From: a plasmid
Strand: one strand, 5' to 3'
Length of the DNA stretch: 2,257 nt
Assembly: GCF_056746865.1 (NCBI RefSeq)
Contig: NZ_JBWKMP010000010.1
In this document: positions 1 to 2,257 of the stretch, piece by piece
How the letters are laid out: every line of letters starts with the position of its first letter
Position numbering within the stretch: position 1 is the first letter of the stretch
Position numbers and translations under genes: made by a program
The notes under the pieces: model-generated
Told to the model about the DNA's origin: nothing
What the model saw: the letters and a program-made list of their open reading frames with translations, nothing else
Database searches by the model: none

Positions 1-837
1 AACGTCCTTAAGCACACCACCCGTCGCCACAAAACGGCGCTTATGTACCTGGCGTGTTAACTCTAGGAACCATTCAGGATCGACCAGCATGTCGGCGGGC
101 TTTGTAGAATATTTCAGTGTTTCAACCACCACCCCGCGCAGTTGATCCACCACAGAACAGGGCAACGATTCACCGTCTTTCGGTTTTCTGGACTTCACAA
201 CCCTGATGTCGACGTTCGGGTCATACTCCACCCGCAGACAGTCGCGCCACAACTCCACCCATCGGGCATGTTTCACATAACCATCACCGGACAACATCGA
301 GGGGGAAACCATCAGCAGGGTGTGGAAATGGGGATGAGCACTGCCGTCCTTGCCGCGGGTGACTTCCGTCGTGCGCACCCAACCCAGCACGCCGCGAAAC
401 TCTTTGCGATCTTTCAGGCGCTGGAAGGCCGCATTCATCACGGTCAGGGTGTCGCCAAGCTCCGTAATCGGACAGTTACGGACGGTCAGGGTCAGGAACA
501 GCCAGCGTGCATCAGGATATTCCGCAACGATCTTTGGCAGGGACTGATAGAAACGGGCTTGCCACATCAGGGAACGCCTCCACTGACAGATCGGACAGTG
601 CCGGACCCGACAGAACCGCGCATCACGTAACCGCAGGCGCGTTTCTCCGGTTTCCTCGTTGGTGGACCACCCAAAACGCAGAATGCCGCTACAACCCTCC
701 ACGCGTTCGCCGTAGCGTTCAAATCCGGCAGCCCGCAGATAAATTCCGCCCACATCATCGGAAATACTCCGGTGCTCATCCCACGTTTTGTCCGCAGGGG
801 AGTAATCCGCCAGATTCTGAAGTTCAGGGTTTTCCAT
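1..837 (-). CDS. Rolling-circle replication initiator, Rep_1 (pC194/pUB110-type HUH) family; 5' partial gene, start at 837, 3' end beyond window start
   Basis: Manual translation of the minus strand from ATG (complement of 835-837) is open for 279 codons to position 1: MENPELQNLADYSP...FLTLTVRN...HPHFHTLLMV...VETLKYSTKP.... It carries a Cys cluster CRVRHCPIC (612-586), motif I FLTLTVRN (498-475), HUH motif HPHFHTLL (336-313) and catalytic Tyr motif KYSTK (114-100) with Glu four residues upstream, the same layout as pC194 RepA. An in-frame TAG (850-852) sits just upstream of the ATG. Not in the ORF track because no stop lies inside the window. Confidence 0.9.
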   Translation of the reverse strand, partial: MENPELQNLADYSPADKTWDEHRSISDDVGGIYLRAAGFERYGERVEGCSGILRFGWSTNEETGETRLRLRDARFCRVRHCPICQWRRSLMWQARFYQSLPKIVAEYPDARWLFLTLTVRNCPITELGDTLTVMNAAFQRLKDRKEFRGVLGWVRTTEVTRGKDGSAHPHFHTLLMVSPSMLSGDGYVKHARWVELWRDCLRVEYDPNVDIRVVKSRKPKDGESLPCSVVDQLRGVVVETLKYSTKPADMLVDPEWFLELTRQVHKRRFVATGGVLKDV

Positions 838-872: not shown

Positions 873-889
873 CGTGTTATCATTCCAAT
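873..889. repeat. Direct repeat copy 1 (CGTGTTATCATTCCAAT), iteron-like, upstream of rep
   Basis: 15 of 17 positions identical to the copy at 903-919; exactly 30 bp apart. Confidence 0.7.
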
Positions 890-902
890 ATCACCTGTAT
901 AT

Positions 903-919: not shown

Positions 920-935
920 TTCTCAGGTGGTCATC

Positions 936-974
936 CCCCCGAACGACGCCCATCGTTGCGGGGGTTTATTTTTT
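936..974 (+). terminator. GC-rich hairpin plus T-run (intrinsic-terminator-like) on the + strand, antisense to the rep leader
   Basis: Stem 936-946 pairs with 953-964 (11 bp, one bulged G at 958, six G:C pairs at the base), loop cgccca (947-952), then TTTATTTTTT (965-974). No T-run follows it on the minus strand. Confidence 0.45.
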
Positions 975-1420
975 GACCGCTAAAACCAAAATACACTCAA
1001 AACCATTTCGGAGCAAATTGCCGTTCAGCCCAGTCCTGACAAGGTCTAGAGGCAAATTTGAATCCCAGAGTTATCCCTTAAGTATAAATACAAGGATCGC
1101 GCGCGAGATTTGCTCAAATTTCGAGCTATTTTTTTAGCCCCCCAAAGCCACACATCCCACCCACTTACACCCATCTCATCCACAGACTTTCACCCCGAAT
1201 TTGTGAACAACAAAAACAGCCTCACAGGTGGTTGGCCTCACTCCGTGACACCAACCACCACCACCAGTATCTTCCCCGTGCCATCGTCAATCACAAAATC
1301 GGAACCCACGCCGGAGGCGCGGGACCCCGCGATTTTCTGTTTGACGAGTTCGGGAACGGTGAGCGGGACGCGGAATTTTTTCGCGTGCCGTGAGGCGTTG
1401 GCGGGGTGTCGGGGCGAAGC

Positions 1421-1478
1421 CCTGACCAGGTGGGGAATGTCTGAGCGAGCGTGCGCGGTCCGACATTCCCACATCCTG
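1421..1478. repeat. Left arm of a perfect 58-bp inverted repeat (partner 1826-1883)
   Basis: cctgaccaggtggggaatgtctgagcgagcgtgcgcggtccgacattcccacatcctg is the exact reverse complement of 1826-1883. Imperfect similarity continues about 17 bp outward (to about 1403) and a few bp inward. Confidence 0.95.
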
Positions 1479-1586
1479 CCCCGATTTTTTCGCCAGAACG
1501 CTGGCAGAGCATCGGCAGTTCTGCGCCGTTAAGCCCTCCGCAGGAGCGCACAGTTTCCCGACGAAGGAGAGAAACGTCTAAGTACG

Positions 1587-2052: not shown

Positions 2053-2077
2053 AAAAAAACGCGCCTGAGCGCGTTTT
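2053..2077. terminator. Bidirectional rho-independent terminator, probably ending the minus-strand ORF at 2105-2257
   Basis: aaaaaaaCGCGCctgaGCGCGtttt: 5-bp G:C stem (2060-2064 with 2069-2073), 4-nt loop, extendable by A:T pairs, flanked by A7 on the left and T4 on the right. In the minus orientation the hairpin is followed by seven T, 28 nt after the TAA stop at 2105-2107. Confidence 0.65.
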
Positions 2078-2104
2078 AGAGGCCTTAAAATCGATTTTTA
2101 GATG

Positions 2105-2257
2105 TTATTTCTGTTTTGGCTTATCCATTGTGCGATCGCGGCGATACTTTTTAGCCACCGCCCGCCATGAAAACGCCAGACGCGATCCGTCATCCGCACC
2201 CTCTGCCATGCCATCTGCCATAATCAAATCCTCGTTCGTTTCCCGCTCCAGTTGCAA
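2105..2257 (-). CDS. 3' end of an unidentified minus-strand ORF (open to the window edge), or a complete 38-aa basic small ORF starting at ATG 2219-2221
   Basis: Minus frame from 2257 is open for 50 codons (...LQLERETNEDLIMADGMAEGADDGSRLAFSWRAVAKKYRRDRTMDKPKQK*) and ends at TAA (complement of 2105-2107). The other two minus frames hit stops within 11 and 22 codons. An internal ATG (2219-2221) has GAGGA (2229-2233) 7 nt upstream. A strong terminator lies just downstream. Confidence 0.45.
   Translation of the reverse strand: MQLERETNEDLIMADGMAEGADDGSRLAFSWRAVAKKYRRDRTMDKPKQK

What the first reader, a model, noticed from the sequence alone, without database searches (positions are those of the whole stretch)
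1138..1300. Strongly strand-asymmetric C-rich, G-poor block (G-runs on the minus strand)
The + strand here is dominated by C and A (cccccaaagccacacatcccacccacttacacccatctcatccacag..., ccaccaccacc). As RNA this would be a C-rich, G-poor unstructured segment like a Rho utilisation site. On the minus strand the same region has clustered G-runs (complements of 1170-1172, 1160-1162, 1156-1158 and 1138-1143) with G-quadruplex potential. Such skew is atypical of coding DNA and may mark a termination or origin-related element.
Basis: seen in the sequence. Interest (0 to 1): 0.35.

Follow-up and report, generated by a model that had tools for sequence, protein, structure and literature searches.

The report
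C-rich spacer in plasmid replication origin
The C-rich stretch is non-coding DNA in the replication-origin region of a tiny rolling-circle plasmid: a variable spacer next to the nick site, plus the first hairpin of the signal where host primase starts second-strand synthesis, so it is an ordinary part of a known plasmid family and probably not a Rho terminator or a dedicated G-quadruplex.

Summary
Window 1138-1200 has 3 G against 32 C, the most skewed stretch of the replicon, matched in 1 of 1000 shuffles or fewer.

The window is a complete 2257-bp E. coli/Salmonella plasmid. Its only clear gene is a Rep_1 rolling-circle initiator on the minus strand.

The flagged block covers two different things:
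- **1138-1224:** an A+C-rich, G-poor spacer. It lies between the double-strand origin (invariant core 1066-1108, predicted nick on the minus strand at 1091/1090) and the single-strand origin.
- **1225-1300:** the start of a phage-G4-type primase priming signal (1225-1350), with a CTG start site and covarying hairpins. It is homologous to a site about 630 bp downstream of repA in IncFII plasmids.

The G-rich strand is the displaced single strand. Spacer sequence varies between relatives: it is deleted in one, replaced in others and unalignable in several. The A+C-rich composition nevertheless recurs in 15 of 18 relatives.

The G-quadruplex motif (loops 12/1/7) is what the composition predicts and is absent from half the relatives. 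No + strand promoter supports a Rho site.

My reading, which is inferred, is a structure-free flank or insulator of the origin. Interest is low.

The parts
1..837 (-). rep gene, first 279 codons. The gene starts at 837 and continues across the circle junction.
   Evidence: Translation across the junction gives a 329-aa protein. Pfam Rep_1 PF01446, E=2.6e-85. It is 67% identical to the Rep of Shigella sonnei 53G plasmid C and 31% to pUB110 Rep.
2105..2257 (-). rep gene, last 50 codons plus stop. It is followed by an intrinsic terminator at 2077->2056.
1066..1108 (-). Double-strand origin (dso) core. The minus strand reads GATCCTTG|TATTTATACTTAAGGGATAACT. The predicted Rep nick lies between 1091 and 1090 on the minus strand.
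   Evidence: 95-100% identical in the relatives compared. The core is found in 533 plasmid records. It resembles the pC194 sequence TTATCTTGATAATAAGGGTAACT, and in pUB110 the CTTGATA motif lies on the rep-sense strand upstream of rep. The nick position is inferred, not mapped.
1109..1155 (.). Variable junction between the dso core and the conserved right part of the spacer. It includes a short inverted repeat (GCTC 1112-1115 / GAGC 1123-1126), a T run, and the C6 run at 1138-1143.
   Evidence: Only 61-76% identical in relatives other than the near-identical L001. Replaced in L002, L005, L010, L011 and L017.
1138..1224 (.). A+C-rich, G-poor spacer, which is G+T-rich and C-poor on the displaced minus strand. 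This is the core of the finding.
   Evidence: Minus-strand composition over 1138-1225 is G39 T29 A14 C6, GC skew +0.73. It is the least-structured 80-nt stretch of the plasmid as single-stranded DNA: MFE -1.7 to -2.6 against a mean of -10.0, sd 3.8. The 87 nt fold to only -2.6 kcal/mol. It is deleted in L007 and replaced in others, but the same composition recurs in 15 of 18 relatives.
1138..1172 (-). Relaxed G-quadruplex motif on the minus strand: G6 N12 G3 N1 G3 N7 G3.
   Evidence: Regex and G4Hunter score -1.88. Not beyond composition. Canonical (loops 7 or less) in L003, L004, L008 and L009. Absent in L002, L005, L006, L007, L010 and L011.
1225..1227 (-). CTG trinucleotide at the 3' foot of hairpin I. 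This is the predicted primase start site, with the primer copying towards higher + coordinates.
   Evidence: Invariant in 13 homologues. It sits in the same position as the CTG of phage G4 at 3996-3998, where the record annotates the primer at 3970-3997 and the origin at 3998. The IncFII homologue reads CTGCAAAGCCA, identical to G4.
1227..1259 (-). Hairpin I of the single-strand initiation signal. It lies inside the finding.
   Evidence: Inverted repeat I13. Compensatory changes in the stem across homologues.
1284..1347 (-). Hairpin II of the single-strand initiation signal, a long stem with a nested hairpin. Only its first bases (1284-1300) lie inside the finding.
   Evidence: Inverted repeat I4. 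Compensatory changes, plus invariant G.T wobble pairs that exist only on the minus strand.
1225..1350 (-). Whole phage-G4-type single-strand initiation signal, which serves as the single-strand origin (sso) of the plasmid.
   Evidence: As single-stranded DNA it folds to -35.1 kcal/mol, z=-6.5. 9 of 38 pairs are compensatory. Matches in 1217 plasmid records, including IncFII plasmids about 630-640 bp downstream of repA.

Best explanation
The window is a whole 2257-bp rolling-circle plasmid of the enterobacterial pKYM-like branch of the pC194/pUB110 (Rep_1) family.

**How the replicon works.** Rep nicks the minus strand at about 1091/1090 in the invariant origin core (1066-1108). The minus strand is peeled off as a single-stranded circle. 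Host primase then starts the second strand at a phage-G4-type priming signal on that strand (1350->1225), at the CTG at 1227->1225.

**What the flagged block is.** It is two things joined together:
- 1225-1300 is the start site, hairpin I and the beginning of hairpin II of that priming signal.
- 1138-1224 is the spacer between the priming site and the nick site.

On the displaced strand the spacer is G+T-rich and almost free of C, so it cannot fold.

**Proposed role (inferred).** The spacer stays extended and coated with single-strand binding protein. It forms the 3' flank of the primase start site and keeps the priming hairpins and the nick-site region from mispairing with each other. Under this reading its composition matters while its sequence is free to change.

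The G runs and the rut-like composition are by-products of that composition.

**Shown:** the replicon type, the positions of the origin core and the priming signal, which strand folds, and the variability and composition of the spacer.
**Inferred:** the exact nick position, primase use, and the role of the spacer.
For: **Replicon type.** Rep_1 domain, E=2.6e-85. The Rep is 67% identical to that of Shigella sonnei 53G plasmid C and 31% to pUB110 Rep. 2257-bp plasmid records match the whole window at about 95%.

**Origin core.** 95-100% conserved and present in 533 plasmids. It resembles the pC194 nick region on the minus strand, and the pUB110 motif lies on the rep-sense strand.

**Priming signal.**
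- BLAST matches to IncFII plasmids downstream of repA.
- That IncFII site carries a hairpin followed by CTGCAAAGCCA, identical to the annotated phage G4 complementary-strand origin.
- Two hairpins with 9 of 38 compensatory pairs, and invariant G.T wobbles valid only on the minus strand.
- Fold z-score -6.5.

**Spacer.**
- It holds the least-structured single-stranded DNA windows of the plasmid.
- It is deleted in L007, replaced in L002 and L018, and of unrelated sequence in L005/L011, L010, L017/L022, L019, L020 and L021.
- In 15 of 18 plasmids, the 100 nt after the origin core fall in the lowest 5% of GC skew for that plasmid.

**Mutation bias alone is too weak.** rep four-fold sites have GC skew +0.13 on the minus strand. 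Other non-coding segments range from -0.41 to +0.21. A crude substitution spectrum predicts about +0.26. The spacer shows +0.73, with G far above A.

**Related plasmids.** In pIGRK an ssi is dispensable, but its loss causes multimerisation and instability.
Against: - The role of the spacer is not tested.
- One natural plasmid (L007) lacks 1139-1207, so the core of the block is not essential.
- Its low folding energy follows from its composition (z=-0.43). The argument from structure is therefore not independent of the observation.
- A G-rich flank could pair with C-rich hairpin arms or form quadruplexes, which fits poorly with a structure-free role.
- 1156-1224 is 87-94% identical in plasmids whose rep third codon positions are only 52-66% identical. 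That suggests either a sequence-specific function I have not identified, or simply co-transfer with the priming-signal/oriT module by recombination.
- In L020 and L021 an A+C-rich tract follows the origin core although the priming signal is far away. This ties the tract to the nick side rather than to the priming side.
- The window's own start site reads CTGTGAGG, not the CTGCAAG/CTGCAAAG of relatives.
Confidence: 0.55

Rival explanations
1. Neutral spacer. The skew is only the footprint of strand-asymmetric mutation, such as cytosine deamination on the displaced single strand, acting on DNA under no constraint.
For: The bias has the right sign across the plasmid. rep four-fold sites on the minus strand have G>C (+0.13) and T>A (+0.31). 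Per-site C>T exceeds G>A, and A>G exceeds T>C, on the minus strand. The spacer is hypervariable and can be deleted.
Against: The size is wrong. The spectrum predicts a skew of about +0.26 with A roughly equal to G, whereas the block has +0.73 with G39 against A14. Other variable non-coding segments on the same strand are not skewed: +0.06 for 1412-1892 and -0.02 for 1893-2104. Several unalignable spacer variants share the composition. 1156-1224 is far more conserved than rep synonymous sites.
Confidence: 0.17
2. Double-stranded accessory part of the plus origin. This would be the counterpart of the pKYM 'enhancer', where the host protein HU binds and helps Rep bind the core.
For: The pKYM plus origin is 173 bp, with a RepK-binding core and an adjacent enhancer bound by HU (PMC4439123, summarising Yasukawa 1997). 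The A+C-rich tract always abuts the origin core, even where the priming signal is distant (L020, L021). HU binding is not sequence-specific, which would fit a variable sequence. Deletion being tolerated fits an enhancer.
Against: The enhancer is described as downstream of the core. Downstream in the direction of replication is 1065->945, which is on the other side of the core and contains phased A/T tracts. The primary papers could not be read. Nothing about HU explains a G-poor strand asymmetry.
Confidence: 0.13
3. G-quadruplex on the displaced minus strand that slows or regulates second-strand synthesis or the termination of a replication round.
For: The motif G6 N12 G3 N1 G3 N7 G3 at 1172->1138 has a G4Hunter score of -1.88 on the + strand. 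It lies on the strand that becomes single-stranded. Four relatives carry a canonical motif with loops of 7 or less.
Against: The number of runs and the motif are what the composition predicts: P=0.39, and 20% of block shuffles carry a motif. 36% of whole-plasmid shuffles carry some relaxed motif. There is no motif in 6 of the 12 sequences scanned, and the segment is deleted in L007. The window's own motif has a 12-nt loop.
Confidence: 0.07
4. Rho utilisation site on a + strand RNA that terminates transcription running into the origin.
For: C 44%, G 6%, C/G 6.8 over 78 nt, essentially unstructured as RNA (-5.1 kcal/mol over 87 nt), with hairpins downstream that could act as pause sites.
Against: No + strand promoter is predicted between 975 and 1137. 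A strong + strand terminator-like hairpin at 935-975 precedes the block. There is no + strand gene. The tract follows the origin core across relatives, not any transcription unit.
Confidence: 0.04
5. Protein-coding DNA, either the 140-aa + strand ORF 1110-1532 or the annotated 78-aa minus strand ORF 1238-1474.
For: RefSeq annotates a hypothetical protein over the equivalent of 1238-1474 in two relatives. Both ORFs are open in the window.
Against: No Pfam match. Length differences are not multiples of three, and the open stretches are shortened in close relatives. A 70-nt deletion and replacements fall inside the + strand ORF. The conservation pattern is that of hairpin stems with compensatory changes.
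Confidence: 0.02

Closest known systems
pKYM of Shigella sonnei and the small enterobacterial Rep_1 plasmids typed Col(MP18), ColpVC and Col(BS512)
   Same: About 2 kb. A single Rep_1 initiator, 67% identical to that of a 2089-bp S. sonnei plasmid. The same invariant origin core upstream of rep. A priming signal about 120 nt further upstream. An A+C-rich spacer between the two.
   Different: The spacer sequence is not homologous to that of the S. sonnei plasmid. This plasmid also carries two inverted oriT-like arms. I could not confirm that the S. sonnei plasmid examined is pKYM itself, nor read the pKYM origin papers.
Phage G4 complementary-strand origin and plasmid 'G4-type' single-strand initiation signals, such as the G site downstream of oriR in IncFII plasmids R1/R100 (the latter from my own knowledge of Masai and Arai 1989)
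   Same: Hairpins on the template strand with a CTG at the 3' foot of hairpin I, where the primer starts. BLAST-level homology to the IncFII site, which shares CTGCAAAGCCA with G4.
   Different: There is no detectable sequence similarity between the window and phage G4 itself. The window's start context is CTGTGAGG. Only 1225-1300 of the finding belongs to this element, and the C-rich core does not.
pC194/pUB110 double-strand origin (nick at CTTG|ATA, from my own knowledge)
   Same: The motif lies on the rep-sense strand upstream of rep. CTTG is followed by TAAGGG(A)TAACT, as in pC194.
   Different: CTTGTAT instead of CTTGATA, with extra bases between the two motifs. The Gram-positive plasmids have no comparable G+T-rich flank 5' of the nick.
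Rho utilisation (rut) sites
   Same: A C-rich, G-poor, unstructured stretch of about 80 nt.
   Different: There is no evidence that the + strand is transcribed here.

Membership tests
Rep_1 (pC194/pUB110/pKYM) rolling-circle plasmids | Initiator protein with the Rep_1 domain and an HUH metal-binding motif | tested here: met
   PF01446, E=2.6e-85, covering 68-317 of 329 aa. HPHFHTLL is visible in the translation. 31% identity to pUB110 Rep, E=2e-48.
Rep_1 (pC194/pUB110/pKYM) rolling-circle plasmids | Double-strand origin with a CTTG|ATA-type nick motif on the rep-sense strand upstream of rep | tested here: inconclusive
   The minus strand has CCTTGTATTTATACTTAAGGGATAACT, against pC194 TCTTGATAATAAGGGTAACT. 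The position and strand match pUB110. The core is invariant in relatives. The motif is not identical and the nick is not mapped.
Rep_1 (pC194/pUB110/pKYM) rolling-circle plasmids | Single-stranded circular replication intermediate | not testable with these tools
   Needs Southern blotting without denaturation, or S1 nuclease sensitivity.
Phage-G4-type single-strand initiation signal (primase-only priming) | Conserved hairpins on the template strand | tested here: met
   -35.1 kcal/mol, z=-6.5. 38 pairs, 9 with compensatory changes. G.T wobbles are valid only on the minus strand.
Phage-G4-type single-strand initiation signal (primase-only priming) | 5'-CTG-3' start site just 3' of hairpin I | tested here: met
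   CTG at 1227->1225 is invariant in 13 homologues. The G4 record places the primer start at the T of CTG 3996-3998.
Phage-G4-type single-strand initiation signal (primase-only priming) | Homology to an experimentally defined member | tested here: inconclusive
   77% identity over about 100 nt to IncFII plasmids about 630-640 bp downstream of repA, E=4e-9. That site shares CTGCAAAGCCA with G4. That it is the published G site rests on my memory of its position. There is no direct similarity of the window to G4.
Phage-G4-type single-strand initiation signal (primase-only priming) | Priming by DnaG alone on SSB-coated single-stranded DNA | not testable with these tools
   Needs an in vitro assay or an M13 ori-deleted plaque-rescue assay.
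Rho utilisation site | About 80 nt of C-rich, G-poor, unstructured RNA | tested here: met
   C 43.6%, G 6.4% over 1138-1215. RNA MFE -5.1 kcal/mol for 87 nt.
Rho utilisation site | Lies in a transcribed, untranslated RNA | tested here: not met
   No + strand promoter-like site upstream of the block. The only + strand site is at 1245-1273, and the count equals the chance expectation. A + strand terminator-like hairpin lies at 935-975. This is prediction only, with no RNA data.
Rho utilisation site | Rho-dependent 3' ends | not testable with these tools
   Needs Term-seq with and without bicyclomycin.
G-quadruplex-forming sequence | Four G3+ runs with loops of 1-7 nt | tested here: not met
   The window has loops of 12, 1 and 7, so only the relaxed definition is met.
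G-quadruplex-forming sequence | Run clustering beyond composition, and conservation in relatives | tested here: not met
   P=0.39 for the number of runs, and 20% of block shuffles carry a motif. The motif is absent from 6 of the 12 sequences scanned.
G-quadruplex-forming sequence | Folding in vitro | not testable with these tools
   Needs circular dichroism or a polymerase stop assay.
pKYM plus-origin enhancer (HU-binding) | Adjacent to the Rep-binding core, on its downstream side | tested here: inconclusive
   The tract abuts the core in all relatives. It lies 5' of the nick on the nicked strand, whereas the review calls the enhancer 'downstream'.
pKYM plus-origin enhancer (HU-binding) | Binds HU and stimulates Rep binding | not testable with these tools
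   Needs footprinting.

The most novel reading that the evidence does not exclude
The composition of the spacer, rather than its sequence, is under selection. At least six unalignable spacer variants in pKYM-like plasmids have arrived at the same G+T-rich, C-depleted displaced strand just 5' of the nick site. This would mark a previously undescribed origin component: a structure-free (or quadruplex-prone) single-stranded segment that sets how efficiently a replication round is terminated or the second strand is primed.
Probability: 0.2. Interest if true: 0.45.

Novelty: new member of a known kind. Interest (0 to 1): 0.2.

Why it matters
It matters mainly as a clarification. An eye-catching skew in a raw sequence turns out to be the origin region of a common family of 2-kb cryptic plasmids of E. 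coli, Salmonella, Shigella and Klebsiella.

The useful outputs are:
- a map of the nick-site core, the primase priming signal and the spacer for this plasmid type;
- evidence that a RefSeq 'hypothetical protein' over the priming signal is probably spurious;
- the observation that an A+C-rich tract next to the nick site recurs in unrelated sequence variants.

If that compositional constraint proved functional, it would add a small new component to the model of rolling-circle origins in Gram-negative bacteria.

Tried and rejected
- **Rfam.** The scan of the whole window found nothing relevant. The only hit was isrK at 2054-2161, E=0.099, below the gathering score.
- **Phage collection.** No match in 'near' mode. 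'Distant' mode gave only E=0.6 hits of 1284-1352 to a non-coding end of Erwinia PEar phages.
- **DnaA boxes.** TCATCCACA at 1176-1184 is one of 6 one-mismatch matches, against 3.8 +/- 1.8 expected, so there is no enrichment.
- **Long-range pairing.** Pairing of the G-rich spacer with the C-rich stretch at 1395-1420, which would enclose the priming hairpins, appears in the MFE. It carries only 0.01-0.19 paired probability per nucleotide across relatives, so I did not pursue it.
- **Gram-positive relatives.** I looked for a G+T-rich flank 5' of the nick. It is weak in pC194 and absent in pUB110.
- **NCBIfam on Rep.** No family matched.
- **Literature.** The pKYM PNAS 1991 paper and the R1 start-site EMBO J 1992 paper are not held. 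Searches for the IncFII G site returned nothing usable. The identification of the IncFII match with the published G site, and the side on which the pKYM enhancer lies, therefore rest on memory and a review sentence.
- **Coding readings.** Rejected.

Full report
**Observation**

The block is real. Window 1138-1300 has A48 C68 G18 T29 (GC skew -0.58). The core 1138-1200 has only 3 G against 32 C (-0.83). The replicon as a whole has skew -0.12. These are the most negative 63-, 89- and 163-nt windows of the sequence. In 1000 dinucleotide-preserving shuffles, a window as skewed appeared once (63 nt) or never (163 nt).

**What the window is**

Megablast shows that the window is a complete small plasmid. 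Records of exactly 2257 bp from E. coli and Salmonella match it end to end at about 95%. Hundreds of 1.8-2.8-kb plasmids typed Col(MP18), ColpVC or Col(BS512) share parts of it. No phage matches.

The only convincing gene is on the minus strand. It runs 837->1 and continues across the circle junction 2257->2105, giving a 329-aa protein.
- It has a full-length Rep_1 domain, E=2.6e-85.
- It carries an HUH motif (HPHFHTLL).
- It is 67% identical to the Rep of the 2089-bp plasmid C of Shigella sonnei 53G, and 31% to pUB110 Rep.

The plasmid is therefore a rolling-circle replicon of the pC194/pUB110 family. It belongs to the enterobacterial branch typified in the literature by pKYM of S. sonnei (PMC4439123). 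Everything from 838 to 2104 is non-coding.

**Double-strand origin**

An alignment of eleven relatives shows a nearly invariant stretch at 1066-1108. It is 95-100% identical even in plasmids whose rep third codon positions are only 52-55% identical. The core is present in 533 plasmid records.

Read on the minus strand it is GATCCTTGTATTTATACTTAAGGGATAACT. This resembles the pC194 nick region TTATCTTGATAATAAGGGTAACT. In pUB110 the CTTGATA motif lies on the rep-sense strand about 180 nt upstream of rep, the same arrangement as here.

I infer a Rep nick on the minus strand between 1091 and 1090. The minus strand, which is the G-rich strand of the block, would then be the strand displaced as single-stranded DNA.

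**Single-strand origin**

The right part of the finding is conserved and structured.
- Window 1226-1400 matches 1217 plasmid records.
- Among them are IncFII virulence plasmids of Salmonella, where the match lies about 630-640 bp downstream of repA in non-coding DNA.
- On the strand complementary to repA, that IncFII site has a hairpin followed by CTGCAAAGCCA.
- The same eleven bases follow hairpin I of the phage G4 complementary-strand origin. There the GenBank record annotates the RNA primer at 3970-3997 and the origin at 3998, so the primer starts at the T of CTG 3996-3998.

In the window the minus strand has the equivalent elements:
- hairpin I at 1259->1227;
- a CTG at 1227->1225, invariant in 13 homologues;
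- a long hairpin II at 1347->1284.

RNAalifold on 13 homologues recovers both hairpins. 9 of 38 pairs change on both sides, and several G.T wobble pairs are invariant. On the + strand those would be A-C mismatches. This independently identifies the minus strand as the one that folds.

As single-stranded DNA, 1350->1225 folds to -35.1 kcal/mol with z=-6.5. From my own knowledge, IncFII plasmids R1 and R100 have a G4-type, primase-only 'G site' a few hundred bp downstream of oriR, where leading-strand synthesis starts (Masai and Arai 1989; Bernander et al. 1992). The position and strand of the match fit this, but I could not read those papers. Similar ssi elements are described in other small enterobacterial plasmids. 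In pIGRK the ssi is dispensable, but its loss causes multimerisation and instability (PMC6854812).

So 1225-1350 is best read as the plasmid's single-strand origin. The finding's last 76 bases (1225-1300) belong to it.

**The C-rich core (1138-1224)**

This is the spacer between the origin core and the priming site. Its sequence is not conserved across the family:
- It is cut to 47 nt in L007 (CP119476), by a deletion between short (G/A)CAAC repeats.
- It is expanded to about 250-260 nt in L002 and L018.
- It has different, unalignable sequences in L005/L011, L010, L017/L022 (Col(BS512) plasmids, L017 from S. sonnei), L019, L020 and L021.

The composition nevertheless recurs. The S. sonnei spacer has A48 C42 G11 T19 (skew -0.58), and the 55-nt pVR50H spacer has skew -0.62. 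In 15 of 18 plasmids, the 100 nt after the origin core fall in the lowest 5% of GC skew for that plasmid, with A+C at 0.57-0.77 (0.62 or more in 14 of them).

Within the window's own lineage, the right part (1156-1224) is 87-94% identical in plasmids whose rep third positions are 52-66% identical. The left part (1109-1155) is only 61-72% identical. The plasmids are clearly mosaics, so this may reflect co-transfer with the priming-signal/oriT module rather than purifying selection.

**Is the skew just mutation pressure?**

A bias of the right sign exists across the plasmid. On the minus strand, rep four-fold sites have GC skew +0.13 and T>A skew +0.31. A crude polarised substitution count gives more C>T per C than G>A per G, and fewer T>C than A>G.

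That spectrum predicts an equilibrium skew of only about +0.26, with A roughly equal to G. The spacer has +0.73 with G39 against A14. Other variable non-coding stretches on the same strand are not skewed (+0.06 and -0.02). Mutation bias contributes, but I do not think it suffices.

**Proposed function**

The spacer holds the least-structured single-stranded DNA windows in the plasmid. MFE is -1.7 to -2.6 kcal/mol per 80 nt, against a mean of -10.0 with sd 3.8. The 87 nt fold to only -2.6 kcal/mol. This follows directly from the near absence of C on the displaced strand.

It lies immediately 3' of the primase start site on the template and immediately 5' of the nick site on the displaced strand. 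I therefore propose, as an inference, that it is a structure-free segment coated with single-strand binding protein. It would flank the priming site and insulate the priming hairpins from the nick region.

There are weaknesses:
- The structural argument is not independent of the composition (z=-0.43).
- One natural plasmid lacks the core of the spacer.
- A G-rich flank is not the obvious way to avoid structure.
- In L020 and L021 the tract stays with the origin core although the priming signal is far away. That points to a role on the nick side, either in termination of a round or as the HU-binding enhancer described for pKYM.

The review sentence available calls the enhancer 'downstream' of the core. 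In the direction of replication that would be 1065->945, on the other side, so I rank that rival lower. I cannot exclude it.

*G-quadruplex.* The minus strand has G6 N12 G3 N1 G3 N7 G3 at 1172->1138, with a G4Hunter score of -1.88 on the + strand. This is the only such motif in the plasmid, and it lies on the strand that becomes single-stranded. However:
- the number of runs is what the composition predicts (5 against 4.15, P=0.39);
- 20% of shuffles of the block carry such a motif;
- 36% of shuffles of the whole plasmid carry one somewhere;
- six of the twelve sequences scanned have none.

*Rho site.* The composition qualifies (C 44%, G 6%). But the scan finds no + strand promoter upstream of the block. 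A strong + strand terminator-like hairpin at 935-975 (RNA -27.6 kcal/mol, z=-3.8) lies between the rep leader and the block. There is no + strand gene.

*Coding.* The two ORFs overlapping the block have no family match and are not kept in frame in relatives.

**Verdict**

The 'origin-related' guess is right in a general sense. The rut reading is unsupported, and the quadruplex reading is weak.

What is there is a known kind of object: the origin region of a pKYM-like rolling-circle plasmid, with a G4-type priming signal and a variable spacer. The only mildly new point is the recurrent composition of that spacer. Interest is low.

Noticed in passing
window 1412-1484 and 1820-1892 (similarity extends to 1398-1490): A 73-nt inverted repeat, 96% complementary, with 335 nt between the arms. 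Each arm contains its own small palindrome. One arm matches 3251 plasmid records, mostly conjugative I-complex plasmids. In an IncK2/Z plasmid the match sits immediately upstream of mobA and the relaxase gene. The plasmid therefore seems to carry two inverted copies of an IncI-complex-type oriT mimic although it has no mob gene. This would explain the 'mobilizable' typing of relatives and would allow either strand to be transferred.
   Followed up: partly
window 935-975, + strand: A GC-rich hairpin followed by TTTATTTTTT. RNA MFE is -27.6 kcal/mol, z=-3.8. It looks like an intrinsic terminator on the + strand, just upstream of the rep start as read on the minus strand. It could end an antisense RNA to the rep leader. 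The consensus scan missed it.
   Followed up: partly
window 873-892 and 903-922: Two direct repeats, CGTGTTATCATTCCAATATC and CGAGTTATCAATCCAATTTC, 30 nt apart and just upstream of the rep start codon on the minus strand. They are candidates for rep promoter or operator elements.
   Followed up: no
window 1238-1474, minus strand; L001 603-839: RefSeq annotates a 78-aa hypothetical protein (WP_065898629.1) here in a near-identical plasmid. The ORF overlies the priming-signal hairpins and an oriT-like arm, has no family match, and is not kept in frame in relatives. It is probably a spurious call.
   Followed up: partly
window 1156-1411 versus 1-837, compared with L006, L008, L009 and L004: The plasmids are mosaics. 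Against L006, L008 and L009, rep third codon positions are 52-55% identical while 1156-1411 is 87-95% identical. L004 has a 99% identical rep but only 71% identity over 1485-1819. One module boundary falls inside the finding, at about 1156.
   Followed up: partly
window 1255-1267 (minus strand ACTGGTGG at 1269->1262): The window-specific CCACCACCACCAG reads ACTGGTGG on the minus strand, which is 7 of 8 bases of Chi (GCTGGTGG). Relatives have CCATCCCCAG instead. Chi is known to protect rolling-circle plasmid multimers from RecBCD, but this is a near-match only.
   Followed up: no
window 1351-1411: Immediately beyond the priming signal the skew reverses: the minus strand is C-rich with GC skew -0.41. 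In the minimum-energy fold this stretch pairs weakly with the G-rich spacer across the priming hairpins. The paired probability is low and inconsistent in relatives.
   Followed up: partly
L007 (CP119476.1) 1495-1543: A Salmonella Newport plasmid of this family lacks the equivalent of window 1139-1207, with the deletion falling between short (G/A)CAAC direct repeats. The record also has about 220 bp of terminal redundancy, so it is probably an assembly of a plasmid of about 2.04 kb.
   Followed up: partly
window 2054-2161, minus strand: A weak Rfam match to the isrK Hfq-binding sRNA (21 bits against a gathering score of 50, E=0.099). It overlaps the rep stop codon and the rep terminator. It is most likely just the terminator hairpin.
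   Followed up: no
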